Below are positions 1,660-64,000 of a stretch of 64,000 bases of DNA, piece by piece (the stretch's first letter is position 1; each line of letters begins with the position of its first letter). The stretch is from Haliotis cracherodii. Lineage: Eukaryota. The position numbers and the translations under genes are program-made. Location of the stretch: the NCBI RefSeq assembly GCF_022045235.1, contig NW_027266330.1, positions 31,558,001 to 31,622,000 on the forward strand, read 5' to 3'. Under the pieces are notes generated by a model. That model ran no database searches. It was not told the DNA's origin and worked only from the letters and a program-made list of their open reading frames with translations.

Positions 1660-2024
1660 GGACCGCCTCCGTGGTCTAATGGTAGAGCGTCCGCCCGGAG
1701 AGCGGAAGGTCCGGGGTTCGATCCCCAGCCGCGACATACCAAAAGACGTTTAAAGATGGTACTTGTCTGGCGCTCGGCATTAAGGGGCTAAAACAAGGAC
1801 TGGTCGGCTCAGAGTCAGTATACTGTTTCTGAGTGGGGTATTCATGTTAAACTGCGGCATGGTATCTCAGTGTGCTAGCACTATAAATCGGCATCAGTCC
1901 GGACTTGTACAAGCAGCCACACACACACACATACACGTGCATGCACGTCGCTATATAAGTGCAATAATCTTGGATGCGACGTTAAACCCCATTTCACCTC
2001 ACCTCACCTCACCTCACCTCACCT
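1660..2024 (+). mobile_element. SINE family B (tRNA head, Meta-domain-like core, (CACCT)n tail)
   Basis: A-box TGGTCTAATGG, B-box GGTTCGATCC, core CATACCAAAAGACG...GCTCGGCATTAAGG; TSD CAATT(C/T)ATCCT. The Meta-domain assignment is from recalled similarity. Confidence 0.85.
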
Positions 2025-2042
2025 CAATTTATCCTACATTTT

Positions 2043-2716: not shown

Positions 2717-4057
2717 TTACGAGACAGATAAACGCAATTAGCACCGCCCGTTTATTGTAACATACAAATAGGTTGATAATAGTGTTGATAAAAATTGTGA
2801 AAACTAGTTTACTATATAGCTAAAAGGCATTGGGCCATCTTAAACATATTGAGTAATAAAGTCGAGACAAGAAGATGGATGATATTTAATTAAGAATTAA
2901 CGTCAATATGTTTTGCATTTATAAAATGATAAACGTAAAAGCCGGTGTGCATACTGTCTAAACCCGCGTAGCAATTTATTTATAGAATAATCAACGCACA
3001 GCGAAGAAATACGGATTATTTGGTATCATGTGAAAATGGAGAAAATTGCTGTATTAACCCTATGGGTAATATTAAGATATTAATACATATTTTAATGACG
3101 ATAGCATCAATATTGCCTTGAATAGTATAAGATGTATAGAACACGCCCATACAACACAATTACGGACATAATTGAACAATTTTGTACACGCCTTAAGAAT
3201 ATCAAACAGAGGAATAATGCCTTCTTGCATAATATTGAAAAAAGTGGGCGTATATTTTTGTTTATGTGCATCACGTATTTCATCTATCTTTATCACTTCA
3301 CGTGTTTATATGTGCGTGTCACGTGGAGGTTACAACAAGGGGGGTAGACAATATACACCTTGCAGTACACCTACATTCAAACTTACTGCCAGTGGATAAT
3401 ATTGTCACGAGCCATAAGGTGTTGTCACGTCTACGACAAACCCGAGACTGGAGTAGACTCCATATGCATTTTATTATAATAACATGTAAACAATGTCTAA
3501 AATAAACATAAACAAGTAAACAAACAACAAACAAAACATTGGTCCAAAGGTGATGAAATAACTATTTCCAGAAATAGTGTTTATGCCTTCAGAACACACC
3601 AGGAAAGCGAAAAAATATATCTCGTGTTTTTATATTATTCTTTATATTGTTAATGGACACAAGCACTGCTTCCAGCTTTTGACAACACGGGAGCTGCTTA
3701 TTATAACCAGGGACTTTTGATCTCGTTAACTTGAATTTTATATCGTGTTATCCGCGGATCCGTAAACATGGCTAATGAATATTTATTGCGTGATATGGTT
3801 TTGTATGCTGGAATGGACACGACTTAAAGAGGTCATCAGCGGCGTCAGTTGGTCGATCTTTAATCCAAAGTCATAGGGGGAAAAATGGTCTAAAAATCAA
3901 AGAAGACTACTTCATGCGCTTTCAATAAAATGTTTTGTAATTTTCACTTAGTGTTTGAGTGTTTCACTTATAAAGGCGTGGGGTATGTTCAGTGATGAAT
4001 GCAGAGCATGTACACTGACCGTGACGACGGGATGACGTATCTTGCATATCAGAGCGT

Positions 4058-6540: not shown

Positions 6541-7049
6541 AACCTGAAACCAAATTATTCCAACACAAATATATATAATTACATAAATAAATGTAACGAC
6601 GCACTTGATGGCCCTCTCTCATATATCGTACAAGGTTCGTTAACAGGGTAGATTTATATTATTATTATTTTATTTTTCTATTAAAGAAATAACGTAAATA
6701 GTTTAATATCGTGCGACCAGAATGCTTAATAAAGGGTGTAAAATTGATTATATTATACAAAACTAGACCAGTCATTCCTAAACCATTTGTGACAACGTGC
6801 ACCCGGTGAATCGTTACACATCAATGCCCTGTCATGCAAACGACCAGAAACAATTCCTTCTACAATAGTGTGCATATATTTAATGCCAATATGATCCATG
6901 TTGTGTATGCATATTGTAAGTAACATATGAAGTTTTAGATATAAGATAAATTGAAATGGCGACACATGAACTTGTTTATATGAAATTGCAATACTAAATA
7001 TTATACATATTGCATTGCATTTGTCGAAATTAAATTCTAATCCTAATAA

Positions 7050-7218
7050 GTGAGTGAGTGAGTAAGTTTGGTTTTACGCCGCTTTTAGCAATATTCCAGC
7101 AATATCACGGCGGGGGACACCAGAAATGGGCTTCACACATTGTACCCATGTCGGGAATCGAACCCGGGTCTTCGGCGTGACGAGCGAACGCTTTAACCAC
7201 TAGGCTACCCGACCGCCC
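7050..7218 (-). mobile_element. SINE family A
   Basis: Near-consensus copy; TSD CTAATCCTAATAAG. Confidence 0.9.
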
Positions 7219-7292
7219 CTAATCCTAATAAGACTGAATCAGTTTTTATTTCTTAGACGAGAACAGCAAGTATACAGTGCCATATGTATTTA

Positions 7293-10782: not shown

Positions 10783-11670
10783 TCAATATAGATTGTAGTA
10801 TGAAGAAGGGGAGGCAAGGACCTTTAAAGACTTCAGTTTCATGGGCTTTTTCCCAGGTGACAAGACAGGCATTGGTCTTACAGGTCGCAGAGCATGTCGA
10901 GGTCTCCTCGGAGGTTTAAAGCTAGGCTGCCGCTGCAGGTACTTCTCCAACGGACTTCTACTCCGGGTCAATTCTGATGCAACGAAACTATAGCCAAAGG
11001 CGGCAATGATAGCAAAGGCGAACCCGACCCAGGCAGCGATGTAGGATTCCTTGAAGTATCGTGTTGTGGCCCGCTTCAGTTCGCTTGGCCATTTCTGGTA
11101 AAACTGCTGGCGGTTTTCAAGTTGGTCCCCGACAAGGTTCTCCTCGATGTAGACTGAGCTGTGGAAGAACGCCATCCCAAGAACTATAACAAATGCAGCG
11201 AGACACACTAGGATGGATGGGACCCACACGTGCGAGCGAGGTCTTGCTATGCAGAGGTATAATCCTGCCATGTAGCAGATGAAAAGCAGCAGCTCGCCCA
11301 CAAGGAACATGGCCATGAAGGTCGTGTACAGGGCCAACATAGAGGTGTACGCGTCACTGGCACCGTCGATGTTGTCACTGAACATCAGCTTGAAGCAGTT
11401 CTTGTCTTCAACCCCACTTATCGTATCAAGGAATTGGGTATCGTTGCCAGGGTAACACTCACGGAACATGCCTCTGTGGCGGGTGTGGTAGTATCGCGCT
11501 GTGATCCCCGTCGATGATGATGTTTGTTGCGTGGTCGTCAGCTTCGTCCTGTCAACTTTGTACAACAACCATTTATCAGTGCCCATGGCAGCAAGGATGA
11601 GGACGATGGCGACGACGTTGGCAATGTTGCCGAGCGTGATGAATAGGGTGACACGTTTATTCTGTCCCAT
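10783..11670 (-). CDS. Claudin/PMP22/EMP-superfamily tetraspan membrane protein, 295 aa, single coding exon
   Basis: Four hydrophobic helices; TM1 followed by TDKW; GMFREC (counterpart of the GLWxxC signature) plus a second Cys (KNCF) in the first loop; SYxxAW before TM4; basic cytoplasmic tail; start context ACCATGG. Confidence 0.85.
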   Translation of the reverse strand: MGQNKRVTLFITLGNIANVVAIVLILAAMGTDKWLLYKVDRTKLTTTQQTSSSTGITARYYHTRHRGMFRECYPGNDTQFLDTISGVEDKNCFKLMFSDNIDGASDAYTSMLALYTTFMAMFLVGELLLFICYMAGLYLCIARPRSHVWVPSILVCLAAFVIVLGMAFFHSSVYIEENLVGDQLENRQQFYQKWPSELKRATTRYFKESYIAAWVGFAFAIIAAFGYSFVASELTRSRSPLEKYLQRQPSFKPPRRPRHALRPVRPMPVLSPGKKPMKLKSLKVLASPSSYYNLY

Positions 11671-12525
11671 GGTTAAGAAGAGGTTTTCAGGTTACTTCGC
11701 GTTGGCAGGCGTGATAGTTTCTGAGGCTTACTCGACCTCCTCCTATTCGAAATGGATAGGGTAATGCCCACGAGTAATGATGTCCCTATATTGTAAACTG
11801 CTTCTTTTGACAAGACTATTCAGCTTTCAGCCTCCCTTATTACCCGGGGTCTGTCTCCAAAGTATTCACTCGCTTTAAACATGTCTTTCTTGAATATACG
11901 GAACAGATCACCAAACGCACGTCAATGTCATGATGACATAACTATAGCATTGGCAGTATGTGTGGGAAGTGTTAGTTTGGTAAATTAGGAGCTTCGCAAA
12001 TAAATCTACATATCGGTTGTGAGACCTCCCCCTCCAGGTATGTCTCACAAACTGTCACACATTGATGCACATTGGGTGATTGTGTTCACAGTCACCACTG
12101 CATCTGGAGATGGGCTTCACAGAGCGGAACAGAATTGTGAGGACGACAGAGCAGTGATATTCGGATCACGTCGTCTTACAAATATCTGATCAGAGCATTT
12201 ATGTTCAGCTGTATGGGAACCTCAGAATAGGCCAGTTGTGAGTATTTGTAACTTTCGTTTTGACAGCAATGTATTGGTGGGCCCGTGAAGGAAGGGTGGG
12301 GCGGGGCAGGGTAGGGTGGGGTGGGATGGGTTGGGTAAGTGGTTGGATCACGTGAACAGTATGTTAAGATGTATCGCATTTCCACATTACACATGAACAT
12401 AATGATCACAACTGTTGTCACAGACACGCAGAGAGAGAGAAGAGAGAGAGGACAGAGAGGTACACAGTTAGAGAGAAAAGAGACACAGAGAGAGGGGGGG
12501 GGGGGGGGGGGGGGGATGGCACAGA

Positions 12526-17946: not shown

Positions 17947-18105
17947 NNNNNNNNNNNNNNNNNNNNNNNNNNNNNNNNNNNNNNNNNNNNNNNNNNNNNN
18001 NNNNNNNNNNNNNNNNNNNNNNNNNNNNNNNNNNNNNNNNNNNNNNNNNNNNNNNNNNNNNNNNNNNNNNNNNNNNNNNNNNNNNNNNNNNNNNNNNNNN
18101 NNNNT
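17947..18105. other. Assembly gap
   Basis: Run of N. Confidence 1.
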
Positions 18106-19129: not shown

Positions 19130-22100
19130 ATAGGAAAAATTCGCTAAACACGGTACCTTCAAATGAAGCACATATCTTCAACCACTACCGTAGTTTAGAG
19201 TTAAGCGTGCCTAACTACTAGGAAATATTCGCCAACCATGGTACCTTCTAATGAAGCACATATATTCAACCACTACCGTAGTTTAGATTTAAGTGTGCCT
19301 AACTACTAGAAAATATTCGCTGAACATGGTACCTTCTAATGAATCACACATCTTCAACCAGTTCTGTAGTATAGAGTTAAGTGTGCCTAACTACTAGGAA
19401 ATATTCGCTAAACATGGTACCTTCTAATGAAGCAAATATATTCAACCACTACTGTAGTTTAGAGTTAAGCGTGCCTTACTACTAGGACTTATTCGCTAAA
19501 CGTAGTACCTTCTAATGAAGCAAATATATTCAACCACTACTGTAGTATAGAGTTAAGCGTGCCTAACTACTAGAACATATTCGCTAAACATGGTACCTTC
19601 TAATGAATCACATATCTTCAACCAGTTCGGTAGTATAGAGTTAAACGTGCCTAACTACTAGAAAATATTCGATAAACATGGTACCTTCTAATGAAGCACA
19701 TATCTTCAACATGTATTCATATCTTCAACCACTACTGTAGTTTAGAGTTAAGCATGCCTAACTACTAGGAAATATTCGCTAACCATGGTACCTTCTAATG
19801 AAGCACATGTGTTCAACCACTACCGTAGTATAGATTTAAGTGTTCCTAACTACTAGAAAATATTTGCTGAACATGGTACCTTCTAATGAAGCACATATCT
19901 TCAACCAGTTCGGTAGTAGAGAGTTAAGTGTGCCTAACTACTAGGAAACATTCGCTAACCATGGTACCTTCTAATGAAGCACATATCTTCAACCAGTTCG
20001 GTAGTATAGAGTTAAGTGTGCCTAACTACTAGGAAATATTCGCTAAACATGGTACCTTCTAATGAAGCACATATCTTCAACCGCTACTGTAGTTTAGAGT
20101 TAAGCGTGCCTAACTACTAGGAAAAATTCACTAAACATGGTACCTTCTAATGAAGCACATATCTTCAACCACTACTGTAGTTTAGAGTTAAGCGTGCCTA
20201 ACTACATGGAAAAATTCACTAAACATGGTACCTTCTAATGAAGCACATATCTTCAACCGCTACTGTAGTTTAGAGTTAAGCGTGCCTAACTACTAGGAAA
20301 AATTCACTAAACATGGTACCTTCTAATGAAGCACATATCTTCAACCACTACTGTAGTTTAGAGTTAAGCGTGCCTAACTACATGGAAAAATTCACTAAAC
20401 ATGGTACCTTCTAATGAAGCACATATCTTCAACCGCTACTGTAGTTTAGAGTTAAGCGTGCCTAACTACTAGGAAAAATTCACTAAACATGGTACCTTCT
20501 AATGAAGCACATATCTTCAACCACTACTGTAGTTTAGAGTTAAGCGTGCCTAACTACATGGAAAAATTCACTAAACATGGTACCTTCTAATGAAGCACAT
20601 ATCTTCAACCACTACTGTAGTTTAGAGTTAAGCGTGCCTAACTACTAGGAAAAATTCACTAAACATGGTACCTTCTAATGAAGCACATATCTTCAACCGC
20701 TACTGTAGTTTAGAGTTAAGCGTGCCTAACTACTAGGAAATATTCTCTAAACATGGTACCTTCTAATGAAGCACATATCTTCAACCACTACTGTAGTTTA
20801 GAGTTAAGCGTGCCTAACTACATGGAAAAATTCACTAAACATGGTACCTTCTAATGAAGCACATATCTTCAACCGCTACTGTAGTTTAGAGTTAAGCGTG
20901 CCTAACTACTAGGAAAAATTCACTAAACATGGTACCTTCTAATGAAGCACATATCTTCAACCGCTACTGTAGTTTAGAGTTAAGCGTGCCTAACTACTAG
21001 GAAATATTCTCTAAACATGGTACCTTCTAATGAAGCACATATCTTCAACCGCTACTGTAGTTTAGAGTTAAGTGTGCCTAACTACTAGGAAATATTCTCT
21101 AAACATAGTACCTTCTAGTGAAGCACATATCTTCAACCGCTACTGTAGTTTAGAGTTAAGCGTGCCTAACTACTAGGAAATATTCTCTAAACATAGTACC
21201 TTCTAGTGAAGCACATATCTTCAACCGCTACTGTAGTTTAGAGTTAAGCGTGCCTAACTACTAGGAAATATTCTCTAAACATAGTACCTTCTAGTGAAGC
21301 ACATATCTTCAACCGCTACTGTAGTTTAGAGTTAAGCGTGCCTAACTACTAGGAAATATTCTCTAAACATGGTACCTTCTAGTGAAGCACATATCTTCAA
21401 CCGCTACTGTAGTTTAGAGTTAAGCGTGCCTAACTACTAGGAAATATTCTCTAAACATAGTACCTTCTAGTGAAGCACATATCTTCAACCGCTACTGTAG
21501 TTTAGAGTTAAGCGTGCCTAACTACTAGGAAATATTCTCTAAACATAGTACCTTCTAATGAAGCAAATATATTCAACCACTACTGTAGTTTAGAGTTAAG
21601 CGTGCCTTACTACTAGGACTTATTCGCTAAACGTAGTACCTTCTAATGAAGCACATATCTTCAACCACTACTGTAGTTTAGAGTTAAGCGTGCCTAACTA
21701 CTAGGAAATATTCGCCAACCATGGTTCCTTCTAATGAAGCACATATATTCAACCACTACCGTAGTTTAGATTTAAGTGTTCCTAACTACTAGAAAATATT
21801 TGCTGAACATGGTACCTTCTAATGAATCACACATCTTCAACCAGTTCTGTAGTATAGAGTTAAGTGTGCCTAACTACTAGGAAATATTCTCTAAACATGG
21901 TACCTTCTAATGAAGCACATATCTTCAACCACTACTGTAGTTTAGAGTTAAGCGTGCCTAACTACTAGGAAATATTCGCTAACCATGGTACCTTCTAATG
22001 AAGCACATATCTCCAACCACTACTGTAGTTTAGAGTTAAGCGTGCCTAACTACTAGGAAATATTCTCTAAACATGGTACCTTCTAGTGAAGCACATATCT

Positions 22101-22890
22101 TCAACCGCTACTGTAGTTTAGAGTTAAGCGTGCCTAACTACTAGGAAATATTCTCTAAACATGGTACCTTCTAGTGAAGCACATATCTTCAACCGCTACT
22201 GTAGTTTAGAGTTAAGCGTGCCTAACTACTAGGAAATATTCTCTAAACATGGTACCTTCTAGTGAAGCACATATCTTCAACCGCTACTGTAGTTTAGAGT
22301 TAAGCGTGCCTAACTACTAGGAAATATTCTCTAAACATGGTACCTTCTAGTGAAGCACATATCTTCAACCGCTACTGTAGTTTAGAGTTAAGCGTGCCTA
22401 ACTACTAGGAAATATTCTCTAAACATGGTACCTTCTAGTGAAGCACATATCTTCAACCGCTACTGTAGTTTAGAGTTAAGCGTGCCTAACTACTAGGAAA
22501 TATTCTCTAAACATGGTACCTTCTAATGAAGCACATATCTTCAACCGCTACTGTAGTTTAGAGTTAAGCGTGCCTAACTACTAGGAAAAATTCACTAAAC
22601 ATGGTACCTTCTAATGAAGCACATATCTTCAACCACTACTGTAGTTTAGAGTTAAGCGTGCCTAACTACTAGGAAAAATTCACTAAACATAGTACCTTCT
22701 AATGAAGCACATATCTTCAACCACTACTGTAGTTTAGAGTTAAGCGTGCCTAACTACTAGGAAATATTCGCTGAACATGGTACCTTCTAATGAAGCACAT
22801 ATCTTCAACCACTACTGTAGTTTAGAGTTAAGCGTGCCTAACTACTAGGAAATATTCGCTGAACATGGTACCTTCTAGTGAAGCACATAT
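19130..22890. repeat. 88-bp satellite array, ~43 copies
   Basis: CATGGTACCTTCTAATGAAGCACATATCTTCAACC... recurs every 88 bp (20048, 20136). Confidence 0.95.
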
Positions 22891-25050: not shown

Positions 25051-26619
25051 CACAAAGACAAAAGTTAAGCACATCCCTATATCTGAACCATGACAAATGG
25101 CAAAAATCACGGCATGGAATGACTGACCACAGGATCTGGGCGATACCAATGTCATCGGATAGAACAAACATTTGACAACAAATAAAGAAGATATTGGTGA
25201 GTTGTGATTGACATTTACTGACAAAAACATCAGGGTAACACAGGTACAGTTTTTGATCTTAGACAATACCATAAAAAAATATGGAGCTGCGGGATTACGT
25301 AAACGAGTTACGTTAGAAGTTTCATGTGAAATTGTTCCTTAAAGTCTCTACTTGACATGACACGTGAAACAGATCAGTAGCGGGTATAACCGCCACGTGC
25401 CCGGGTGACGCATTTCACCCTACGTCTCATGCCTCCAGTCAGACGTTGGATCTGTTGATGGGTCAACAACAACCACTCTTGATGTACTGCTGCCTCCAAT
25501 TGATGTACAGGAGGATCTCGTGCCTGTATGCGCCGCCCCAGAATATCCCAAACATGTTCAAGGGGGTTCAAATCTGGGCTCATTGCTGGCCAGGGTAGAG
25601 TCGTTATTGCATTGGCCCTCATGTAATCCACGACTGCATGCGAACGATGAGGCCTGGCATTGTCATCCATGTACTGAGGTCGAGTAGCAGGTTGGTGGTT
25701 GTCAAAATGAGGAACGACTACTGGTCTCAAATCGCCCCGGATGTACTGAGACCTTGTTAAGTTGCCCCTTATGGTGACCAAATCCAACCTGCATCATAAG
25801 AGATACACCCCTAAACCATTACCGAGCCCCCGCCGTATGCAACAGACGGTTTAATGTTCCTGGGGGTGTAGGCCGTGTTCCGGCGCCTCCATTCGCTCGT
25901 CCTTCCATCAGTGACGTGGAGCAGAAAGCGACTTTCGTCTGACCAATGGATCCGACACCAAGTTCTCAGATTCCAGTTCTGTCGCGCAATACACCATGCT
26001 AAACGAGCAGCTTTGTGATGATATCTGAACAAGGGACGCTTTATGACGCGTCTAGTCCACAGTCTTCCTGACGGTTCTGGTGCTAAAACGACGATTTGGC
26101 AACTACAGCTGTTTCAGACGAGTACTTGTTAAAAAGGGTTCTCGGCGCATGAGACGAAGAAGGTCCCTGTCTTCGCGATATGTCGTCACAGGAGGTCTTC
26201 CGGGTCTAGGACGGCCCTGTACATCACCTGTCTGAGCATGTTTCTCGACTAAACGGCTTACGACAGTGTGACCAATGGCATTACAAGACATTCCTGCCTT
26301 ATGCATGCTGATTATTTGCCATCTTGTGGCGTTTGATGATCGCCTTCGTGCCATGGTCACACAATGTCATGGAATAACTGTTTAAAACCGAGCTTAAGAA
26401 AGCAATTTTAACGTTTGGATATACTGCTTCTAGCGATGTCGCACGGGAAGTGTAAGCTGAAGTATACCATGCATGGCACGTGAACTTTCGTCACGCACGA
26501 CTGATTGCATCATCTCGAGAAAACATAATTCTTCCCGTAATTATATCTTTCATGACTGTTACATATTGGGACCAAACAATAATGAAATATATTAGGGTGT
26601 GCTTAGCTTATTTCTTGTG
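25051..26619 (-). mobile_element. Full-length but decayed Tc1-family transposon (transposase pseudogene 26360-25374)
   Basis: HTH and GRPP motif, WSDESRF, DDNARPHR, WPAMSPDLNPLEHVW and GGYTRY* split over three ORFs; imperfect TIRs CACAAAGACAAAAGTTAAGCACATCCCTA and TAGGGTGTGCTTAGCTTATTTCTTGTG, each flanked by TA. Confidence 0.9.
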
Positions 26620-50966: not shown

Positions 50967-51074
50967 AAAGTAACCACATCGGATTTTTAAGTAACACAAT
51001 GTACTGCACCGTTTGATCAATCCCGATTTAATCAATTAACAATGATTGATAATCCCTGGAGATAACAGGACTAG

Positions 51075-51313
51075 ATTGGTTGAACTCTTCTCAGACCTCT
51101 CCCTTTATACGGAAACTTGTTTTGACAAGAAGTTGATTGGTTTCTCAAGTGGACAGCGAGATTCCTTTCCGATCAAAGCCTAATGAAGTTGTAGTGTAGC
51201 TTTGATCTCGCCACTGGCTTCGAAAATGCTCTCCTTGATCTATAAATCTCTACTACTATGTTTATACTAAGGGTCAGTATAAATGTTTTGCACGGACTGA
51301 GGTCCTTCACTTC
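51075..51313 (+). promoter_or_regulatory. Predicted Pol II promoter of the array gene (repeated in every unit)
   Basis: Reverse CCAAT boxes at 51075 and 51136; inverted ATCAAAG/CTTTGAT pair at 51171-51207; TATAAA at 51278; Inr-like TCACTTC with its A 31 nt downstream (51309). Confidence 0.6.
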
Positions 51314-51430
51314 ATCTCAATCCGTGAGAACGAACACATCTACTTTCCAATTATCTAAATTTGGCGCTACTGAATTCCTGTAGTATTACATCCGACTGCA
51401 TTCTAGTGTTGTGTCCGAAGGCCCTAGAAA

Positions 51431-52053
51431 ATGAATCCAGTTCAAGTTGCCATCAAGCTGAGACGACTCCTTATTGCCCACGACAATGCAGTGAAAGAGA
51501 TTCTGACATTAGGTAAATATGAACTGTGTCTCTTTTTCAGTCCCCTGCAAACATGGCAATATTGGTATCACACTGAATTTTAGAATTGAACAAAATAAAA
51601 TGATATTGTTGTGAACACATTTACCGAGATTTCTAATTACCCGTTTTATTGTTTTCAGATACCCAAGTCTACCATCTGATGCGGAAGATGACAGCCAACT
51701 CCTCCAACAACTGCATAATCCGAGGTGAACAGCTGATCCAGAGACGATGGGTGCTGGAAGGTGTCAAGGAGATGTTTACCATCTACAGACAACTCAAGTG
51801 GCAAGAGGTGCAAGCCTGTGTAAACGCCATCACCAAAGATGCTTCTGGAGAGAGTGATTCGGAGGCGGACTGGAATGGAGATACCTCTTTCAATGACGAT
51901 GAAGCTTCCTTCACGGAACTCTTGTCCGACAGCTCATATAGTGAGGACGACGAAGACCAGGGAGACCTATACAGCAACGACAGCAGCTACGATATGACGA
52001 CTCTCAGTCGAGCTTTGTCTGTAGACGACAGTGCACTTCATAGAAACGCCTAA
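51431..52053 (+). CDS. Array gene copy 1, 158-aa uncharacterised protein (exons 51431-51512, 51659-52053)
   Basis: TTAG|GTAAAT...TTTTCAG|AT phase-1 intron joins MNPVQVAIKLRRLLIAHDNAVKEILTL to DTQVYHLMRK...; AATAAA ~150 nt after the stop. Confidence 0.8.
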
Positions 52054-53968
52054 GAAAAATCACAAGTCCCATCCACATCAACTAGTGCTGCATTTACCTT
52101 GTTATTCATTTTTTGTTATTGTACACAAATGTTGCCTGACAGTGTGCAAAGGGCATCCTATTATATTGTAAACCACATTTGTTTGTTGATGAATATGCTG
52201 AGGAAATAAATAATGAAGTCGATATTATAATCTTGATCATTTGCTGACACGCTCACGACATCTTGAAGACATCATTCGTATAGAAAGTTTGTGAGAGAGA
52301 GAGAGAAAAGGTTAATTTGAGATGGTATCTCACAATACCAAGCCTTCGATCATTTTACTTGGTTCTGAGTATGGCAATCATTCGCAGATATCGTCCTTAA
52401 TCTATTCTTTGAAATAGGAAAAGATACAGACTAATCAATTGAAATGAAACACATTAGGTATTGATGGAGAAGAAGAGATTCCAAGGTAATGGTTGCACCA
52501 TAACATTAAATACAGTTTGGAGCGTAGCAATTCGTTTGCCCGTATCCATGCCGATCCTATAGCAAAAGGATTTAGACAGACGAACCACAACCCCATATGA
52601 TATTCATCTGAGAGAGATATATGCCAGGTTGAATTTCATATTATCAGAGCATTTAATTGTTTCTCTTTCCTTTTGAAATGTACATGCCCAAGTGCTTAAG
52701 GAGAGAGTCATACATGTTAAAAAGTGTCAATGCATACAGCATGCAAAACAAAAGGAAATTGAAACATTGACATCAACACAGGCCAAATAACATTTTTGAT
52801 CCAAGTCAGCACTTGATGAATACTATTCCCCTGAAAGCACTAAAAAGTAAAGATCAGAATATCCTGACATGAAACAGTGGGCATCTTTCAAAAACAATGC
52901 TAACAACGTGCTTATGTTTATCTAGCAACATACTCCAATTTCCATCATGTGCTTTAACAGTATTCTGTATTCAAAGATATAAATCATGACACCGTACTTT
53001 GTAATTCTCCCCAAAACATGACAGTTATACACTGAAGATGATGTCTCTAGATCATTTAACATACATAAACTTTATTGTACATGCCTATTTATTTATTTAT
53101 ATAGTAACCTTTTAAGTACCCGACGTCCACCCAAAAGCTTCTAAGATGGTAAATATCCAGATACTTAAGCCAAATGAGCTGCTTCAATTATACCATGATG
53201 ATGGTATTCATCAAAAATAGTATTTGAAATGCTTCAAAACATACGTGCTGTATTTCGATCATGTAAGACGGGTTGGGAAAATGGTCAGATTAACATAGCA
53301 TTTACGACCTCAAACAGATGTGTACAATAAGTTCCAGATTTGACTGTACATGTCTTCAATTTGCCTTTGCCTACCTGATTAAGGATTTTTTAGGATTGTG
53401 GACATGGTTTTCTCGGGTTTTTTAATTGAAACTAAACGTTCAGAGAAGCATCAGACGATTTCCAAGCTGATAGAAGTTTCTGTGACTTGGTTTCTGTGGA
53501 AGCGAAAGTAACCACATCGGATTTTTAAGTAACACAATGTACTGCACCGTTTGATCAATCCCGATTTAATCAATTAACAATGATTGATAATCCCTGGAGA
53601 TAACAGGACTAGATTGGTTGAACTCTTCTCAGACCTCTCCCTTTATACGGAAACTTGTTTTGACAAGAAGTTGATTGGTTTCTCAAGTGGACAGTGAGAT
53701 TCCTTTCGGATCAAAGCCGAATGAAGTTGTAGTGTAGCTTTGATCTCGCCACTGGCTTCGAAAATGCTCTCTTTGATCTATAAATCTCTACTACTATGTT
53801 TATACTAAGGGTCAGTATAAATGTTTTGCAAGGACTGGAGTCCTTCACTGCATCTCAATCCGTGAGAACGAACACATCTACTTTCCAATTATCTAAATTT
53901 GGCGCTACTGAATTCCTGTAGTATTACATCCGACTGCATTCTAGTGTTGTGTCCGAAGGCCCTAGAAC

Positions 53969-54590
53969 ATGGATCCAGTTCAAGTTGCCATCAAGCTGAG
54001 ACGACTCCTTATTGCCCACGACAATGCAGTGAAAGAGATCCTGACATTAGGTAAATATGAACTGTGCTCTTTTTCAGTCCCCTGCAAACATGGCAATATC
54101 GGTATCACACTGAATTTTAGAATTGAACAAAATAAAATGATATTGTTGTGAACACATTTACCGAGATTTCTAATTACCCGTTTTATTGTTTTCAGATACC
54201 CAAGTCTACCATCTGATGCGGAAGATGACAGCCAACTCCTCCAACAACTGCATAATCCGAGGTGAACAGCTGATCCAGAGACGATGGGTGCTGGAAGGTG
54301 TCAAGGAGATGTTTACCATCTACAGACAACTCAAGTGGCAAGAGGTGCAAGCCTGTGTAAACGCCATCACCAAAGATGCTTCTGGAGAGAGTGATTCGGA
54401 GGCGGACTGGAATGGAGATACCTCTTTCAATGACGATGAAGCTTCCTTCACGGAACTCTTGTCCGACAGCTCATATAGTGAGGACGACGAAGACCAGGGA
54501 GACCTATACAGCAACGACAGCAGCTACGATATGACGACTCTCAGTCGAGCTTTGTCTGTAGACGACAGTGCACTTCATAGAAACGCCTAA
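53969..54590 (+). CDS. Array gene copy 2 (exons 53969-54050, 54196-54590)
   Basis: As copy 1, with D at residue 2. Confidence 0.8.
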
Positions 54591-56492
54591 GAGAAATCAC
54601 AAGTCCCATCCACATCAACTAGTGCTGCATTTACCTTGTTATTCATTTTTTGTTATTGTACACAAATGTTGCCTGACAGTGTACAAAGGGCATCCTATTA
54701 TATTGTAAACCACATTTGTTTGTTGATGAATATGCTGAGGAAATAAATAATGAAGTCGATATTATAATCTTGATCATTTGCTGACACGCTCACGACATCT
54801 TGAAGACATCATTCGTATAGAAAGTTTGTGAGAGAGAGAGAGAAAAGGTTAATTTGAGATGGTATCTCACAATACCAAGCCTTCGATCATTTTACTTGGT
54901 TCTGAGTATGGCAATCATTCGAAGATATCGTCCTTAATCTATTCTTTGAAATAGGAAAAGATACAGACTAATCAATTGAAATGAAACACGTTAGGTATTG
55001 ATGGAGAAGAGATTCCAATGTAATGGTTGCACCATAACATTAAATACAGTTTGGAGCGTAGCAATTCGTTTGCCTGTATCCATGCCGATCCTATAGCAAA
55101 AGGATTTAGACAGACGAACCACAACCCCATATGATATTCATCTGAGAGAGATATATGCCAGGTTGAATTTCATATTATCAGAGCATTTAATTGTTTCTCT
55201 TTCCTTTTGAAATGTACATGCCCAAGTGCTTAAGGAGAGAGTCATACATGTTAAAAAGTGTCAATGCATACAGCATGCAAAACAAAAGGAAATTGAAACA
55301 TTGACATCAACACAGGCCAAATAACATTTTTGATCCAAGTCAGCACTTGATGAATACTATTCCCCTGAAAGCACTAAAAAGTAAAGATCAGAATATCCTG
55401 ACATGAAACAGTGGGCATCTTTCAAAAACAATGCTAACAACGTGCTTATGTTTATCTAGCAACATACTCCAATTTCCATCATGTGCTTTAACAGTATTCT
55501 GTATTCAAAGATATAAATCATGACACCGTACTTTGTAATTCTCCCCAAAACATGACAGTTATACACTGAAGATGATGTCTCTAGATCATTTAACATACAT
55601 AAACTTTATTGTACATGCCTATTTATTTATTTATATAGTAACCTTTTAAGTACCCGACGTCCACCCAAAAGCTTCTAAGATGGTAAATATCCAGATACTT
55701 AAGCCAAATGAGCTGCTTCAATTATACCATGATGATGGTATTCATCAAAAATAGTATTTGAAATGCTTCAAAACATACGTGCTGTATTTCGATCATGTAA
55801 GACTGGTTGGGAAAATGGTCAGATTAACATAGCATTTACGACCTCCAACAGATGTGTACAATAAGTTCCAGATTTGACTGTACATGTATTCACTTTGCCT
55901 TTGTCTACCTGATTAAGGATTTTTTAGGATTGTGGACATGGTTTTTTAATTGAAACTAAACGTTCAGAGAAGCATCAGACGATTTCCAAGCTGATAGAAG
56001 TTTCTGTGACTTGGTTTCTGTGGAAGCGAAAGTAACCACATCGGATTTTTAAGTAACACAATGTACTGCACCGTTTGATCAATCCCGATTTAATCAATTA
56101 ACAATGATTGATAATCCCTGGAGATAACAGGACTAGATTGGTTGAACTCTTCTCAGACCTCTCCCTTTATACGGAAACTTGTTTTGACAAGAAGTTGATT
56201 GGTTTCTCAAGTGGACAGTGAGATTCCTTTCGGATCAAAGCCGAATGAAGTTGTAGTGTAGCTTTGATCTCGCCACTGGCTTCGAAAATGCTCTCTTTGA
56301 TCTATAAATCTCTACTACTATGTTTATACTAAGGGTCAGTATAAATGTTTTGCACGGACTGGAGTCCTTCACTGCATCTCAATCCGTGAGAACGAACACA
56401 TCTACTTTCCAATTATCTAAATTTGGCGCTACTGAATTCCTGTAGTATTACATCCGACTGCATTCTAGTGTTGTGTCCGAAGGCCCTAGAAC

Positions 56493-57114
56493 ATGGATCC
56501 AGTTCAAGTTGCCATCAAGCTGAGACGACTCCTTATTGCCCACGACAATGCAGTGAAAGAGATCCTGACATTAGGTAAATATGAACTGTGCTCTTTTTCA
56601 GTCCCCTGCAAACATTGCAATATTGGTATCACACTGAATTTTAGAATTGAACAAAATAAAATGATATTGTTGTGAACACATTTACCGAGATTTCTAATTA
56701 CCCGTTTTATTGTTTTCAGATACCCAAGTCTACCATCTGATGCGGAAGATGACAGCCAACTCCTCCAACAACTGCATAATCCGAGGTGAACAGCTGATCC
56801 AGAGACGATGGGTGCTGGAAGGTGTCAAGGAGATGTTTACCATCTACAGACAACTCAAGTGGCAAGAGGTGCAAGCCTGTGTAAACGCCATCACCAAAGA
56901 TGCTTCTGGAGAGAGTGATTCGGAGGCGGACTGGAATGGAGATACCTCTTTCAATGACGATGAAGCTTCCTTCACGGAACTCTTGTCCGACAGCTCATAT
57001 AGTGAGGACGACGAAGACCAGGGAGACCTATACAGCAACGACAGCAGCTACGATATGACGACTCTCAGTCGAGCTTTGTCTGTAGACGACAGTGCACTTC
57101 ATAGAAACGCCTAA
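56493..57114 (+). CDS. Array gene copy 3 (exons 56493-56574, 56720-57114)
   Basis: As copy 2. Confidence 0.8.
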
Positions 57115-59019
57115 GAGAAATCACAAGTCCCATCCACATCAACTAGTGCTGCATTTACCTTGTTATTCATTTTTTGTAATTGTACACAAATGTTGCCTGA
57201 CAGTGTGCAAAGGGCATCCTCTTATATTGTAAACCACATTTGTTTGTTGATGAATATGCTGAGGAAATAAATAATGAAGTCGATATTATAATCTTGATCA
57301 GTTGCTGACACGCTCACGACATGTTGAAGACATCATTCGTATAGAAAGTTTGTGAGAGAGAGAGAGAAAAGGTTAATTTGAGATGGTATCTCACAATACC
57401 AAGCCTTCGATCATTTTACTTGGTTCTGAGTATGGCAATCATTCGAAGATATCGTCCTTAATCTATTCTTTGAAATAGGAAAAGATACAGACTAATCAAT
57501 TGAAATGAAACACATTAGGTATTGATGGAGAAGAAGAGATTCCAAGGTAATGGTTGCACCATAACATTAAATACAGTTTGGAGCGTAGCAATTCGTTTGC
57601 CCGTATCCATGCCGATCCTATAGCAAAAGGATTTAGACAGACGAACCACAACTCCATATGATATTCATCTGAGAGAGATATATGCCAGGTTGAATTTCAT
57701 ATTATCAGAGCATTTAATTGTTTCTCTTTCCTTTTGAAATGTACATGCCCAAGTGCTTAAGGAGAGAGTCATACATGTTAAAAAGTGTCAATGCATACAG
57801 CATGCAAAACAAAAGGAAATTGAAACATTGACATCAACACAGGCCAAATAACATGTTTGATCCAAGTCAGCACTTGATGAATACTATTCCCCTGAAAGCA
57901 CTAAAAAGTAAAGATCAGAATATCCTGACATGAAACAGTGGGCATCTTTCAAAAACAATGCTAACAACGTGCTTATGTATATCTAGCAACATACTCCAAT
58001 TTCCATCATGTGCTTTAACAGCATTCTGTATTCAAAGATATAAATCATGACACCGTACTTTGTAATTCTCCCCAAAACATGACAGTTATACACTGAAGAT
58101 GATGTCTCTAGATCATTTAACATACATAAACTTTATTGTACATGCCTATTTATTTATTTATATAGTAACCTTTTAAGTACCCGACGTCCACCCAAAAGCT
58201 TCTAAGATGGTAAATATCCAGATACTTAAGCCAAATGAGCTGCTTCAATTATACCATGATGATGGTATTCATCAAAAATAGTATTTGAAATGCTTCAAAA
58301 CATACGTGCTGTATTTCGATCATGTAAGACTGGTTGGGAAAATGGTCAGATTAACATAGCATTTACGACCTCCAACAGATGTGTACAATAAGTTCCAGAT
58401 TTGACTGTACATGTATTCACTTTGCCTTTGTCTACCTGATTAAGGATTTTTTAGGATTGTGGACATGGTTTTTTAATTGAAACTAAACGTTCAGAGAAGC
58501 ATCAGACGATTTCCAAGCTGATAGAAGTTTCTGTGACTTGGTTTCTGTGGAAGCGAAAGTAACCACATCGGATTTTTAAGTAACACAATGTACTGCACCG
58601 TTTGATCAATCCCGATTTAATCAATTAACAATGATTGATAATCCCTGGAGATAACAGGACTAGATTGGTTGAACTCTTCTCAGACCTCTCCCTTTATACG
58701 GAAACTTGTTTTGACAAGAAGTTGATTGGTTTCTCAAGTGGACAGTGAGATTCCTTTCGGATCAAAGCCGAATGAAGTTGTAGTGTAGCTTTGATCTCGC
58801 CACTGGCTTCGAAAATGCTCTCTTTGATCTATAAATCTCTACTACTATGTTTATACTAAGGGTCAGTATAAATGTTTTGCACGGACTGGAGTCCTTCACT
58901 GCATCTCAATCCGTGAGAACGAACACATCTACTTTCCAATTATCTAAATTTGGCGCTACTGAATTCCTGTAGTATTACATCCGACTGCATTCTAGTGTTG
59001 TGTCCGAAGGCCCTAGAAC

Positions 59020-59641
59020 ATGGATCCAGTTCAAGTTGCCATCAAGCTGAGACGACTCCTTATTGCCCACGACAATGCAGTGAAAGAGATCCTGACATTA
59101 GGTAAATATGAACTGTGCTCTTTTTCAGTCCCCTGCAAACATTGCAATATTGGTATCACACTGAATTTTAGAATTGAACAAAATAAAATGATATTGTTGT
59201 GAACACATTTACCGAGATTTCTAATTACCCGTTTTATTGTTTTCAGATACCCAAGTCTACCATCTGATGCGGAAGATGACAGCCAACTCCTCCAACAACT
59301 GCATAATCCGAGGTGAACAGCTGATCCAGAGACGATGGGTGCTGGAAGGTGTCAAGGAGATGTTTACCATCTACAGACAACTCAAGTGGCAAGAGGTGCA
59401 AGCCTGTGTAAACGCCATCACCAAAGATGCTTCTGGAGAGAGTGATTCGGAGGCGGACTGGAATGGAGATACCTCTTTCAATGACGATGAAGCTTCCTTC
59501 ACGGAACTCTTGTCCGACAGCTCATATAGTGAGGACGACGAAGACCAGGGAGACCTATACAGCAACGACAGCAGCTACGATATGACGACTCTCAGTCGAG
59601 CTTTGTCTGTAGACGACAGTGCACTTCATAGAAACGCCTAA
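59020..59641 (+). CDS. Array gene copy 4 (exons 59020-59101, 59247-59641)
   Basis: As copy 2. Confidence 0.8.
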
Positions 59642-61548
59642 GAGAAATCACAAGTCCCATCCACATCAACTAGTGCTGCATTTACCTTGTTATTCATTTT
59701 TTGTAATTGTACACAAATGTTGCCTGACAGTGTGCAAAGGGCATCCTCTTATATTGTAAACCACATTTGTTTGTTGATGAATATGCTGAGGAAATAAATA
59801 ATGAAGTCGATATTATAATCTTGATCAGTTGCTGACACGCTCACGACATGTTGAAGACATCATTCGTATAGAAAGTTTGTGAGAGAGAGAGAGAAAAGGT
59901 TAATTTGAGATGGTATCTCACAATACCAAGCCTTCGATCATTTTACTTGGTTCTGAGTATGGCAATCATTCGAAGATATCGTCCTTAATCTATTCTTTGA
60001 AATAGGAAAAGATACAGACTAATCAATTGAAATGAAACACATTAGGTATTGATGGAGAAGAAGAGATTCCAAGGTAATGGTTGCACCATAACATTAAATA
60101 CAGTTTGGAGCGTAGCAATTCGTTTGCCCGTATCCATGCCGATCCTATAGCAAAAGGATTTAGACAGACGAACCACAACTCCATATGATATTCATCTGAG
60201 AGAGATATATGCCAGGTTGAATTTCATATTATCAGAGCATTTAATTGTTTCTCTTTCCTTTTGAAATGTACATGCCCAAGTGCTTAAGGAGAGAGTCATA
60301 CATGTTAAAAAGTGTCAATGCATACAGCATGCAAAACAAAAGGAAATTGAAACATTGACATCAACACAGGCCAAATAACATTTTTGATCCAAGTCAGCAC
60401 TTGATGAATACTATTCCCCTGAAAGCACTAAAAAGTAAAGATCAGAATATCCTGACATGAAACAGTGGGCATCTTTCAAAAACAATGCTAACAACGTGCT
60501 TATGTATATCTAGCAACATACTCCAATTTCCATCATGTGCTTTAACAGCATTCTGTATTCAAAGATATAAATCATGACACCGTACTTTGTAATTCTCCCC
60601 AAAACATGACAGTTATACACTGAAGATGATGTCTCTAGATCATTTAACATACATAAACTTTATTGTACATGCCTATTTATTTATTTATATAGTAACCTTT
60701 TAAGTACCCGACGTCCACCCAAAAGCTTCTAAGATGGTAAATATCCAGATACTTAAGCCAAATGAGCTGCTTCAATTATACCATGATGATGGTATTCATC
60801 AAAAATAGTATTTGAAATGCTTCAAAACATACGTGCTGTATTTCGATCATGTAAGACTGGTTGGGAAAATGGTCAGATTAACATAGCATTTACGACCTCC
60901 AACAGATGTGTACAATAAGTTCCAGATTTGACTGTACATGTATTCACTTTGCCTTTGTCTACCTGATTAAGGATTTTTTTTAGGATTGTGGACATGGTTT
61001 TTTAATTGAAACTAAACGTTCAGAGAAGCATCAGACGATTTCCAAGCTGATAGAAGTTTCTGTGACTTGGTTTCTGTGGAAGCGAAAGTAACCACATCGG
61101 ATTTTTAAGTAACACAATGTACTGCACCGTTTGATCAATCCCGATTTAATCAATTAACAATGATTGATAATCCCTGGAGATAACAGGACTAGATTGGTTG
61201 AACTCTTCTCAGACCTCTCCCTTTATACGGAAACTTGTTTTGACAAGAAGTTGATTGGTTTCTCAAGTGGACAGTGAGATTCCTTTCGGATCAAAGCCGA
61301 ATGAAGTTGTAGTGTAGCTTTGATCTCGCCACTGGCTTCGAAAATGCTCTCTTTGATCTATAAATCTCTACTACTATGTTTATACTAAGGGTCAGTATAA
61401 ATGTTTTGCACGGACTGGAGTCCTTCACTGCATCTCAATCCGTGAGAACGAACACATCTACTTTCCAATTATCTAAATTTGGCGCTACTGAATTCCTGTA
61501 GTATTACATCCGACTGCATTCTAGTGTTGTGTCCGAAGGCCCTAGAAC

Positions 61549-62170
61549 ATGGATCCAGTTCAAGTTGCCATCAAGCTGAGACGACTCCTTATTGCCCACG
61601 ACAATGCAGTGAAAGAGATCCTGACATTAGGTAAATATGAACTGTGCTCTTTTTCAGTCCCCTGCAAACATTGCAATATTGGTATCACACTGAATTTTAG
61701 AATTGAACAAAATAAAATGATATTGTTGTGAACACATTTACCGAGATTTCTAATTACCCGTTTTATTGTTTTCAGATACCCAAGTCTACCATCTGATGCG
61801 GAAGATGACAGCCAACTCCTCCAACAACTGCATAATCCGAGGTGAACAGCTGATCCAGAGACGATGGGTGCTGGAAGGTGTCAAGGAGATGTTTACCATC
61901 TACAGACAACTCAAGTGGCAAGAGGTGCAAGCCTGTGTAAACGCCATCACCAAAGATGCTTCTGGAGAGAGTGATTCGGAGGCGGACTGGAATGGAGATA
62001 CCTCTTTCAATGACGATGAAGCTTCCTTCACGGAACTCTTGTCCGACAGCTCATATAGTGAGGACGACGAAGACCAGGGAGACCTATACAGCAACGACAG
62101 CAGCTACGATATGACGACTCTCAGTCGAGCTTTGTCTGTAGACGACAGTGCACTTCATAGAAACGCCTAA
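61549..62170 (+). CDS. Array gene copy 5 (exons 61549-61630, 61776-62170)
   Basis: As copy 2. Confidence 0.8.
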
Positions 62171-64000
62171 GAGAAATCACAAGTCCCATCCACATCAACT
62201 AGTGCTGCATTTACCTTGTTATTCATTTTTTGTAATTGTACACAAATGTTGCCTGACAGTGTGCAAAGGGCATCCTCTTATATTGTAAACCACATTTGTT
62301 TGTTGATGAATATGCTGAGGAAATAAATAATGAAGTCGATATTATAATCTTGATCAGTTGCTGACACGCTCACGACATCTTGAAGACATCATTCGTATAG
62401 AAAGTTTGTGAGAGAGAGAGAGAAAAGGTTAATTTGAGATGGTATCTCACAATACCAAGCCTTCGATCATTTTACTTGGTTCTGAGTATGGCAATCATTC
62501 GAAGATATCGTCCTTAATCTATTCTTTGAAATAGGAAAAGATACAGACTAATCAATTGAAATGAAACACATTAGGTATTGATGGAGAAGAAGAGATTCCA
62601 AGGTAATGGTTGCACCATAACATTAAATACAGTTTGGAGCGTAGCAATTCGTTTGCCCGTATCCATGCCGATCCTATAGCAAAAGGATTTAGACAGACGA
62701 ACCACAACCCCATATGATATTCATCTGAGAGAGATATATGCCAGGTTGAATTTCATATTATCAGAGCATTTAATTGTTTCTCTTTCCTTTTGAAATGTAC
62801 ATGCCCAAGTGCTTAAGGAGAGAGTCATACATGTTAAAAAGTGTCAATGCATACAGCATGCAAAACAAAAGGAAATTGAAACATTGATATCAACACAGGC
62901 CAAATAACATGTTTGATCCAAGTCAGCACTTGATGAATACTATTCCCCTGAAAGCACTAAAAAGTAAAGATCAGAATATCCTGACATGAAACAGTGGGCA
63001 TCTTTCAAAAACAATGCTAACAACGTGCTTATGTATATCTAGCAACATACTCCAATTTCCATCATGTGCTTTAACAGCATTCTGTATTCAAAGATATAAA
63101 TCATGACACCGTACTTTGTAATTCTCCCCAAAACATGACAGTTATACACTGAAGATGATGTCTCTAGATCATTTAACATACATAAACTTTATTGTACATG
63201 CCTATTTATTTATTTATATAGTAACCTTTTAAGTACCCGACGTCCACCCAAAAGCTTCTAAGATGGTAAATATCCAGATACTTAAGCCAAATGAGCTGCT
63301 TCAATTATACCATGATGATGGTATTCATCAAAAATAGTATTTGAAATGCTTCAAAACATACGTGCTGTATTTCGATCATGTAAGACTGGTTGGGAAAATG
63401 GTCAGATTAACATAGCATTTACGACCTCCAACAGATGTGTACAATAAGTTCCAGATTTGACTGTACATGTATTCACTTTGCCTTTGTCTACCTGATTAAG
63501 GATTTTTTTTAGGAATGTGGACATGGTTTTCTCGGGTTTTTTAATTGAAACTAAACGTTCAGAGAAGCATCAGACGATTTCCAAGCTGATAGAAGTTTCT
63601 GTGACTTGGTTTCTGTGGAAGCGAAAGTAACCACATCGGATTTTTAAGTAACACAATGTACTGCACCGTTTGATCAATCCCGATTTAATCAATTAACAAT
63701 GATTGATAATCCCTGGAGATAACAGGACTAGATTGGTTGAACTCTTCTCAGACCTCTCCCTTTATACGGAAACTTGTTTTGACAAGAAGTTGATTGGTTT
63801 CTCAAGTGGACAGTGAGATTCCTTTCGGATCAAAGCCGAATGAAGTTGTAGTGTAGCTTTGATCTCGCCACTGGCTTCGAAAATGCTCTCTTTGATCTAT
63901 AAATCTCTACTACTATGTTTATACTAAGGGTCAGTATAAATGTTTTGCACGGACTGGAGTCCTTCACATCACATGCCTCCCCCATGGAAACTCAACCAGC

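What the first reader, a model, noticed from the sequence alone, without database searches (positions are those of the whole stretch)
50967..63967. Homogeneous 2.53-kb tandem array of a complete two-exon orphan gene
Seen: each unit has CCAAT, TATA and Inr elements, an 82-nt coding exon 1, a 145-146 nt GT-AG intron, a 395-nt exon 2 and AATAAA. The 158-aa product has an ~85-aa amphipathic helical N-terminal half (...LIQRRWVLEGVKEMFTIYRQLKWQEV...) and a very acidic Asp/Ser/Glu tail with spaced aromatic and Leu residues. The proteins are identical apart from N2/D2. The ORF track splits it into two misleading ORFs. Inference: a dosage-amplified, macrosatellite-type gene (histone- or DUX4-like organisation) whose tail resembles an acidic activation or chaperone domain. 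The LEGVxxMF motif recalls uncharacterised multicopy lophotrochozoan proteins (memory only, unverified).
Basis: partly seen in the sequence, partly recalled or inferred. Interest (0 to 1): 0.75.

Follow-up and report, generated by a model that had tools for sequence, protein, structure and literature searches.

The report
Abalone tandem gene with degradation tag
An abalone chromosome carries at least five nearly identical head-to-tail copies of a small gene of unknown function, whose relatives almost all end in what looks like a 'destroy me' tag, and the array is broken at both ends right at the gene's start site, at least once by a retrotransposon.

Summary
The array is real: five 2.53-kb units plus a sixth promoter, about 99-100% identical and recombining, each with a two-exon 158-aa gene. 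The DNA is Haliotis (abalone). The protein matches RefSeq 'uncharacterized' models (156/158 to H. rufescens; 138/158 to H. asinina), so it is not a strict orphan. It belongs to a family with 18 further representatives, one named as Mytilus, and no Pfam or PDB match. It is predicted as a basic helical hairpin, an acidic disordered linker and a terminal helix; there is no recognisable DNA-binding domain, so the DUX4 likeness is organisational only. New: arginine is fixed third from the C-terminus in 16 of 18 representatives while the last two residues vary. That is the -Rxx* C-degron read by CRL4-TRPC4AP in human cells. Best reading: a dosage-amplified, short-lived adaptor made in a pulse, probably in embryo or germline (inferred; no expression data). 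Also new: both array ends break at the predicted initiator. The left has an inverted RNase H LINE 3' end fused to +1; the right has 33 foreign LINE-like bases after +2, suggesting promoter-targeted insertion or one insertion later rearranged.

The parts
50967..53504 (+). Unit 1 (2538 nt; N2 variant; starts abruptly at the LINE 5' junction)
53505..56028 (+). Unit 2 (CDS 53969-54050 + 54196-54590)
56029..58555 (+). Unit 3 (CDS 56493-56574 + 56720-57114)
58556..61084 (+). Unit 4 (CDS 59020-59101 + 59247-59641)
61085..63623 (+). Unit 5 (CDS 61549-61630 + 61776-62170)
63624..63967 (+). Unit 6, promoter only, cut at +2 of the predicted start site
51075..51313 (+). Promoter of unit 1: reverse CCAAT boxes at 51075 and 51136, TATAAA at 51278, Inr with predicted +1 at 51309 (same in all units)
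   Evidence: start site inferred from motif spacing, not mapped
51431..51512 (+). Coding exon 1 (82 nt; first 27 codons, most of helix 1)
   Evidence: matches NCBI models
51513..51658 (+). Phase-1 GT-AG intron (146 nt; 145 in units 2-5)
51659..52053 (+). Coding exon 2 (395 nt): rest of hairpin, acidic linker, terminal helix ending in -Rxx*; 0 differences among five units
52205..52210 (+). AATAAA polyadenylation signal (unit 1)
49520..50966 (-). 5'-truncated APE-RT-RNase H LINE (I-group type): RNase H + CCHC finger ORF 49802-50890 with a frameshift near 50866, then about 280 nt of 3' UTR; its 3' end joins the gene's start site
49345..49521 (-). Inverted copy of the gene from about -2 to +175 (5' UTR and 18 codons), unit-1 haplotype, 98% identical; ends in a small fold-back junction at 49325-49347
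48785..49339 (+). Spacer fragment of the unit, 96% identical
48378..48494 (+). Old remnant of the distal spacer, 70% identical over 117 columns
63968..64000 (+). 33 foreign A/C-rich bases after +2 of unit 6; one frame fits the P-x-W motif that precedes RNase H in related LINEs; runs off the window

Best explanation
Each unit is a complete polymerase II gene. Head-to-tail copies, kept alike by unequal crossing-over and gene conversion, multiply output from a compact CCAAT-TATA-Inr promoter. The protein is intracellular and has three parts: a basic two-helix hairpin (1-92) with a conserved patch (H17, D18, Y70, R71, K74, W75) that most likely binds a partner; a disordered acidic linker; and a terminal helix whose arginine sits exactly third from the end. 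That end is most likely a C-degron read by the CRL4-TRPC4AP ubiquitin ligase. Many copies give a fast rise and the degron gives a fast fall, so the gene acts as a pulse regulator, probably in cleavage embryos or germ cells. Shown: array, gene model, recombination, family, predicted fold, fixed R-3. Inferred: expression, timing, the partner, the ligase. My odds per step: real gene 0.92; C-terminus read by a terminal-binding protein 0.8; that protein is TRPC4AP 0.55; embryo or germline timing 0.6.
For: Gene intact in 5 of 5 units; NCBI models of identical length in two Haliotis species, each in a 90% cluster of 12 member sequences. 0 of 38 between-unit variant events fall in exon 2 (395 of 2538 nt; binomial P 0.0016; whole CDS 2 events, P 0.017). 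13 of 55 informative site pairs fail the four-gamete test. The family is held together by the hairpin: a hairpin-only HMM of 10 close members scores 8 distant ones at 24-57 bits against at most 5.8 for reversed and shuffled controls. Two AlphaFold models agree (hairpin pLDDT mostly above 90, linker below 50-52, terminal helix 54-69). No signal peptide or TM segment by hydropathy. Arg at -3 in 16 of 18 representatives, with 16 different terminal dipeptides among the 18, against 3 of 120 LINE proteins. It holds in 7 of 7 distant members whose best HMMER stretch did not include the tail. -Rxx* is the canonical TRPC4AP degron (PMC10567573 and PMC7458402, passages). Six lysines lie in the hairpin.
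Against: No transcript, proteomic or half-life data were available. The degron is defined in human cells; that molluscs have TRPC4AP with the same specificity is recalled, not tested. Family members are related, so 16 of 18 is not 18 independent trials. 2 of 18 lack R-3 (P0014 is a fragment that stops before the tail; P0011 has the motif internally with an extension). The tail also conserves L-12, D-9, C-7 and L-5, more than a minimal degron needs, so it may be another docking helix. The low variation in exon 2 includes synonymous sites, so a recent conversion sweep explains it as well as selection. The 12 cluster members could not be listed, so tandem organisation in other species is not shown. 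Timing rests on analogy only.
Confidence: 0.45

Rival explanations
1. Acidic co-activator or chaperone: the hairpin docks on a DNA-bound factor or histone complex and the acidic, aromatic-studded tail activates or chaperones. R-3 would then be the usual coupling of activation to turnover.
For: Residues 89-138 hold 17 Asp/Glu, no Lys/Arg and 9 Phe/Trp/Tyr/Leu. The terminal helix is amphipathic. DUXC/DUX4 arrays encode a C-terminal transactivation domain (PMC13558733, passages). An ING dimerisation hairpin is among the fold matches (Z 11.2, rmsd 3.3, 91 aligned).
Against: No DNA-binding domain was found. Linker length and acidity vary widely; distant members have short, weakly acidic linkers. 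The ING match ties with dozens of unrelated hairpins.
Confidence: 0.17
2. Degron decoy or piggy-back degrader: the amplified protein either saturates TRPC4AP and so stabilises its other substrates, or binds a coiled-coil target with the hairpin and carries it to the ligase.
For: Two conserved ends joined by a free linker are the layout of a bridging adaptor. Dosage amplification suits a stoichiometric role. The conserved tail is longer than a minimal degron.
Against: No partner is known and no binding was tested. A simple self-destruct tag explains the same data with fewer assumptions.
Confidence: 0.13
3. Selfish or conflict gene (Stellate/Sly-type driver or suppressor), or a non-autonomous mobile element amplified in tandem.
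For: Amplified, homogenised array; many divergent relatives at 25-50% identity; retroelement hits at the promoter suggest germline-open chromatin.
Against: The protein is slow for a conflict gene: 80 of 88 hairpin residues identical between H. rufescens and H. asinina. The unit has no terminal repeats beyond 18 nt, no second long ORF and no dispersed copy in the other 48 kb. No transposon, phage or viral family match.
Confidence: 0.1
4. A truncated derivative of ESCRT-III, prefoldin or another known hairpin protein, acting as a dominant-negative subunit.
For: ESCRT-III hairpins recur near the top of three fold searches (5vo5 Foldseek E 0.24; Z 11.9, rmsd 1.1, 82 aligned for the second model). 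Basic hairpin, acidic tail and terminal helix echo the ESCRT-III layout.
Against: No Foldseek match at E <= 0.001. Z falls only from 11.7 to 9.8 over 50 unrelated rows. Identity 9-16%. No Snf7 or prefoldin Pfam hit in 13 members. No ordered helices are predicted after residue 92, where ESCRT-III has helices 3-4 (recalled).
Confidence: 0.05
5. Assembly artefact or non-coding satellite with a chance ORF.
For: Units 3 and 4 differ by only 1 substitution and 2 gap columns. The window has two N runs elsewhere.
Against: Mosaic shared variants, older diverged remnants at the edge, matching NCBI models in two species and a conserved protein family.
Confidence: 0.03
6. For the array ends: one LINE inserted once at the start site of unit 6 with a 12-nt target duplication, and its 3' end plus 175 nt of gene was later copied, inverted, to the left edge during break repair. 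No site-specific family is needed.
For: The 12-mer ending at +2 on the right (63956-63967) matches the LINE-gene join on the left at 10 of 12 positions. The left end has a fold-back junction typical of repair.
Against: The inverted piece has the unit-1 haplotype at 3 diagnostic sites. The right-hand bases do not match the left LINE or its 82% relative P0025 but fit the P-x-W motif of other relatives (9 of 15868 background windows and 2 of 5000 shuffles score as high; motif chosen after seeing the peptide), which would make it a second, independent insertion.
Confidence: 0.5

Closest known systems
NCBI 'uncharacterized protein' LOC125377576 / LOC124119705 / LOC125377315 (Haliotis rufescens) and the H. 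asinina counterpart
   Same: Same 158-aa gene model; 156 of 158 identical to LOC125377576, 138 of 158 to H. asinina.
   Different: Automatic annotations only; 0 papers in the library hold these identifiers.
DUXC/DUX4 macrosatellite arrays (D4Z4 type)
   Same: One gene per tandem unit, homogenised units, intron-containing forms exist, and LINE insertions can split arrays (PMC13558733, passages).
   Different: No homeodomains; unrelated sequence; role in genome activation not shown here.
CRL4-TRPC4AP C-degron substrates (-Rxx*, R-3 motif)
   Same: Arg at -3 with free terminal residues (PMC10567573, PMC7458402, passages).
   Different: Defined in human cells; degradation was not tested here; the family conserves a longer helical motif.
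Target-specific non-LTR retrotransposons of multicopy genes (R1 clade, Tx1 clade, R2/Utopia)
   Same: Insertion in a multicopy tandem gene, at or near one position, in sense orientation, with a possible short target duplication. APE-type elements can be site-specific (PMC4640811, passages).
   Different: The targets listed there are rRNA, spliced-leader, tRNA and snRNA genes, transposons, microsatellites and telomeres, not the initiator of a protein-coding gene. A histone-promoter-targeting element is recalled only and was not found. Only two junctions here, possibly from one event.
Replication-dependent histone tandem repeats; Drosophila Stellate; USP17/RS447; TSPY (all recalled)
   Same: Dosage amplification of a small gene in a head-to-tail array; CCAAT/TATA promoter in histone genes.
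   Different: Intron and AATAAA, no stem-loop hit, no sequence relationship.

Membership tests
Macrosatellite-type protein-coding tandem array | Head-to-tail kilobase units with one intact gene each | tested here: met
   5 of 5 full units
Macrosatellite-type protein-coding tandem array | Concerted evolution with exchange between units | tested here: met
   1-26 substitutions per pair; 13 of 55 site pairs incompatible
Macrosatellite-type protein-coding tandem array | Copy-number variation between individuals; transcription from the units | not testable with these tools
   No reads or RNA-seq
DUX/DUXC family | Double homeodomain | tested here: not met
   No Pfam hit near cut-off; the N-terminal half models as two long helices
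DUX/DUXC family | C-terminal transactivation domain | not testable with these tools
   Acidic composition only
Replication-dependent histone gene repeat | Histone fold, no intron, 3' stem-loop instead of poly(A) | tested here: not met
   Intron and AATAAA; no Rfam hit; no histone Pfam
TRPC4AP C-degron substrate | Arg at -3 (or -4/-5) from a free C-terminus | tested here: met
   16 of 18 representatives, 21 of 23 proteins held; control 3 of 120
TRPC4AP C-degron substrate | TRPC4AP-dependent instability or binding | not testable with these tools
ESCRT-III / Snf7 | Snf7 profile match | tested here: not met
   0 of 13 members at E <= 1
ESCRT-III / Snf7 | Structural match standing above generic hairpins | tested here: inconclusive
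   Z 10-12, tied with unrelated coiled coils
Transposon or viral ORF | TE or viral domain, terminal repeats, dispersed copies | tested here: inconclusive
   None in Pfam, PHROGs, BFVD or in the window; Repbase, the whole genome and viral contig collections were not searched
I-group (RNase H-bearing APE) LINE, for 49520-50966 | APE + RT + RNase H + C-terminal CCHC finger | tested here: met
   RNase H E 4e-19; full-length relatives carry endonuclease, RT and RNase H; CCHC read from the ORF
I-group (RNase H-bearing APE) LINE, for 49520-50966 | Clade placement (Nimb, I, R1, Ingi...) by RT phylogeny | not tested
Target-specific non-LTR retrotransposon | Several independent copies at the same target position | tested here: inconclusive
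   Two junctions at the Inr, perhaps from one event; prokaryotic genome scans for host-derived contigs empty

The most novel reading that the evidence does not exclude
An undescribed molluscan family of array-encoded adaptors that pair a partner-binding hairpin with a hard-wired -Rxx* C-degron, acting as natural bridging degraders or ligase decoys in early development; and its tandem array is the dedicated landing site of RNase H LINEs that insert at the initiator of this protein-coding gene, placing themselves under its promoter.
Probability: 0.15. Interest if true: 0.85.

Novelty: new variant of a known kind. Interest (0 to 1): 0.6.

Why it matters
Gene-bearing macrosatellites are well studied in mammals and flies; ten literature searches turned up no description of this abalone array or protein family. 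A family that keeps Arg at -3 across roughly 25% sequence identity would be a rare natural case of selection for a C-degron outside mammals and gives a one-residue test of function. If LINEs return to this initiator, protein-coding arrays join RNA genes as targets of site-specific retrotransposons. For abalone genomics the array is a likely copy-number-variable locus that short-read assemblies would collapse.

Tried and rejected
Pfam on the protein and on 13 family members: nothing at cut-off. PDB by sequence: 0 hits for the protein, 1 hit at E 1.6 for the profile. PHROGs: best E 0.022. Foldseek PDB and BFVD: 0 at E <= 0.001; VIA-align: only generic hairpins. ESM Atlas: no usable hit for residues 1-90; scores of 0.82 or less to bacterial clusters for P0018, within chance. 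Rfam 46000-64000: 0. Prokaryotic genome scans for host-derived contigs: 0 of 21 and 0 of 62 pattern matches confirmed. One HMMER hit, P0009, was dropped as a low-complexity repeat protein that does not score on the hairpin HMM. Zinc site from the tail cysteines: rejected as essential, since both are Ser in this species. D-box motifs are present but lie inside helices and are absent from 11 of 18 representatives. The minus-strand 106-aa ORF over the intron has no support. The family tree has only 1 well-supported inner branch of 12 (15 rows), so no history is claimed. The sigma-70 scan is irrelevant to a eukaryote. Cluster member lists were unavailable, and a homodimer prediction was not run, so copy number in other species and oligomer state stay open. 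Viral and metagenome contig collections were not searched. Koren et al. 2018 was not held. No supplements were read.


Full report
Observation. Self-comparison shows five complete head-to-tail units of 2524-2539 nt from 50967 and a sixth promoter ending at 63967. Pairs differ by 1-26 substitutions and 2-15 gap columns. Every full unit carries an 82-nt coding exon, a 145-146-nt GT-AG intron, a 395-nt exon and AATAAA, and gives a 158-aa protein that differs only at residue 2. Two reverse CCAAT boxes, TATAAA at -31 and an Inr lie upstream; 0 of 95 TATA-like sites in the other 48 kb have this combination. The start site is inferred, not mapped.

Organism and prior annotation. The protein matches NCBI 'uncharacterized' models of Haliotis rufescens (156 of 158) and H. 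asinina (138 of 158), each in a 90% cluster of 12 member sequences. SINEs in the window end in (CACCT)n, as described for Haliotis MESC SINEs (PMC4758252, passages). So the gene model is independently predicted, but 0 papers in the library name those loci. The cluster members could not be listed, so tandem organisation in other species is likely but not shown.

The array is real and evolving in concert. Of 11 informative sites, 13 of 55 pairs show all four gametes, which points to exchange between units and not to a copied contig. A 96% spacer piece (48785-49339) and a 70% remnant (48378-48494) show that the array has been here a long time. Of 38 variant events, 0 fall in exon 2 (P 0.0016) and 2 in the whole CDS (P 0.017). 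Events are not independent and synonymous sites are also clean, so a conversion sweep is an alternative to selection.

Protein family. HMMER over 1.84 billion representatives gave 19 hits at E <= 0.001; one (P0009) was dropped as a repeat artefact. A hairpin-only HMM from 10 close members scores 8 distant ones at 24-57 bits, against at most 5.8 among 399 controls, of which 306 scored. The only named distant member is from Mytilus galloprovincialis; the rest are unnamed records. No Pfam, PDB, PHROGs or Atlas assignment was found. AlphaFold gives helices 3-40 and 47-92 at high confidence, a disordered 96-135 and a weak terminal helix 137-157; a distant member folds the same way. Fold searches return only generic hairpins (ESCRT-III, ING, prefoldin, SMC arms). 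The hairpin is basic (pI 9.4), the linker has 17 acidic and no basic residues, and there is no signal or membrane segment. By helix register the conserved H17/D18 sit opposite Y70/R71/K74/W75, a likely binding patch (inference).

The tail. Whatever the linker length, 16 of 18 representatives have Arg exactly third from the stop, and the last two residues vary freely; 3 of 120 LINE proteins do so. The two misses are a fragment and a record with the motif internal. All 7 distant members whose best match excluded the tail have it, so it is not a search bias. In human cells -Rxx* is the C-degron of CRL4-TRPC4AP (PMC10567573, three passages; PMC7458402, one passage). That molluscs use the same ligase is recalled, not tested, and relatedness inflates the count.

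Mechanism. Many copies of a short gene with a TATA promoter give a quick rise; a terminal degron gives a quick fall. I read the gene as a pulse-expressed adaptor whose hairpin binds a partner, probably in cleavage embryos or germ cells (0.45 overall). The timing rests on analogy with DUX arrays (PMC13558733, passages) and on my recollection that first zygotic genes are short and young, which search 74 did not confirm. Rivals are an acidic co-activator (0.17), a ligase decoy or bridging degrader (0.13), a conflict gene or mobile unit (0.10), an ESCRT-III-like derivative (0.05) and artefact (0.03).

The array ends. On the left, 49520-50966 (minus) is the 3' 1.45 kb of a LINE with RNase H and a CCHC finger; a relative at 82% carries RT, and full-length relatives carry endonuclease, RT and RNase H. 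Its 3' end runs into an inverted copy of the gene that starts at the predicted +1; continuous identity begins at -2, and the preceding ten bases match the target at 8 of 10. On the right, unit 6 stops at +2 and 33 foreign bases follow. They are A/C-rich like LINE sense strand (2.3% of 95220 background windows as extreme), and one frame fits the P-x-W motif upstream of RNase H in 76 of 120 relatives (9 of 15868 background windows, 2 of 5000 shuffles; motif picked after seeing the peptide). They do not match the left LINE or P0025. Either LINEs return to this initiator, or one insertion with a 12-nt duplication was partly copied and inverted; I rate the single event at about 0.5 and true site-specificity at about 0.25. 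Targets listed for site-specific LINEs are RNA genes, transposons and simple repeats (PMC4640811, passages; PMC8869645, passages); searches (listings only) showed no protein-coding initiator target.

Verdict. Observation confirmed; interpretation partly supported. The organisation is a known kind, the gene is annotated but undescribed, and the fixed R-3 terminus and the start-site junctions are new leads with cheap tests. Interest 0.6; new variant of a known kind.

Noticed in passing
window 10783-11691 (-): Intact single-exon-looking claudin/PMP22-family ORF of 302 codons stop to stop (Pfam Claudin_2, E 1.9e-16).
   Followed up: no
window 27776-28504 (-) and 36403-36795 (-): Fibrinogen C-terminal domain ORF (E 1.7e-16) and a PAN-like exon below cut-off (E 0.012) on the same strand; perhaps one PAN-fibrinogen gene.
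   Followed up: no
window 25374-26113 (-): Broken Tc1/mariner transposase in two frames (DDE_3, E 2e-9).
   Followed up: no
window 1-386, 4046-6541, 19131-22890, 30340-31293, 31608-32900: Minisatellite arrays with periods 120, 37, 88, 53 and 25 nt; the 120-nt unit also matches dispersed repeats.
   Followed up: no
window 1660-2026, 7044-7223, 29875-30232, 35996-36274 and others: At least three dispersed SINE-like families with (CACCT)n or (TCAC)n tails; the first fits the Haliotis MESC SINE description.
   Followed up: partly
window 49325-49347: Short fold-back palindrome joining the spacer fragment to the inverted gene piece, like a templated repair insertion.
   Followed up: partly
window 49530-49545 (-): The LINE 3' end lacks a poly(A) or microsatellite tail; its last bases share a 7-mer with the promoter just upstream of the TATA box, so the true join may lie up to about 26 nt before +1.
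   Followed up: partly
window 17947-18104 and 44631-44768: Two runs of N, 158 and 138 nt.
   Followed up: no
proteins P0029, P0031, P0057, P0144: LINE ORF2 relatives filed under bacterial MAG names, probably eukaryotic contigs binned into those assemblies.
   Followed up: no
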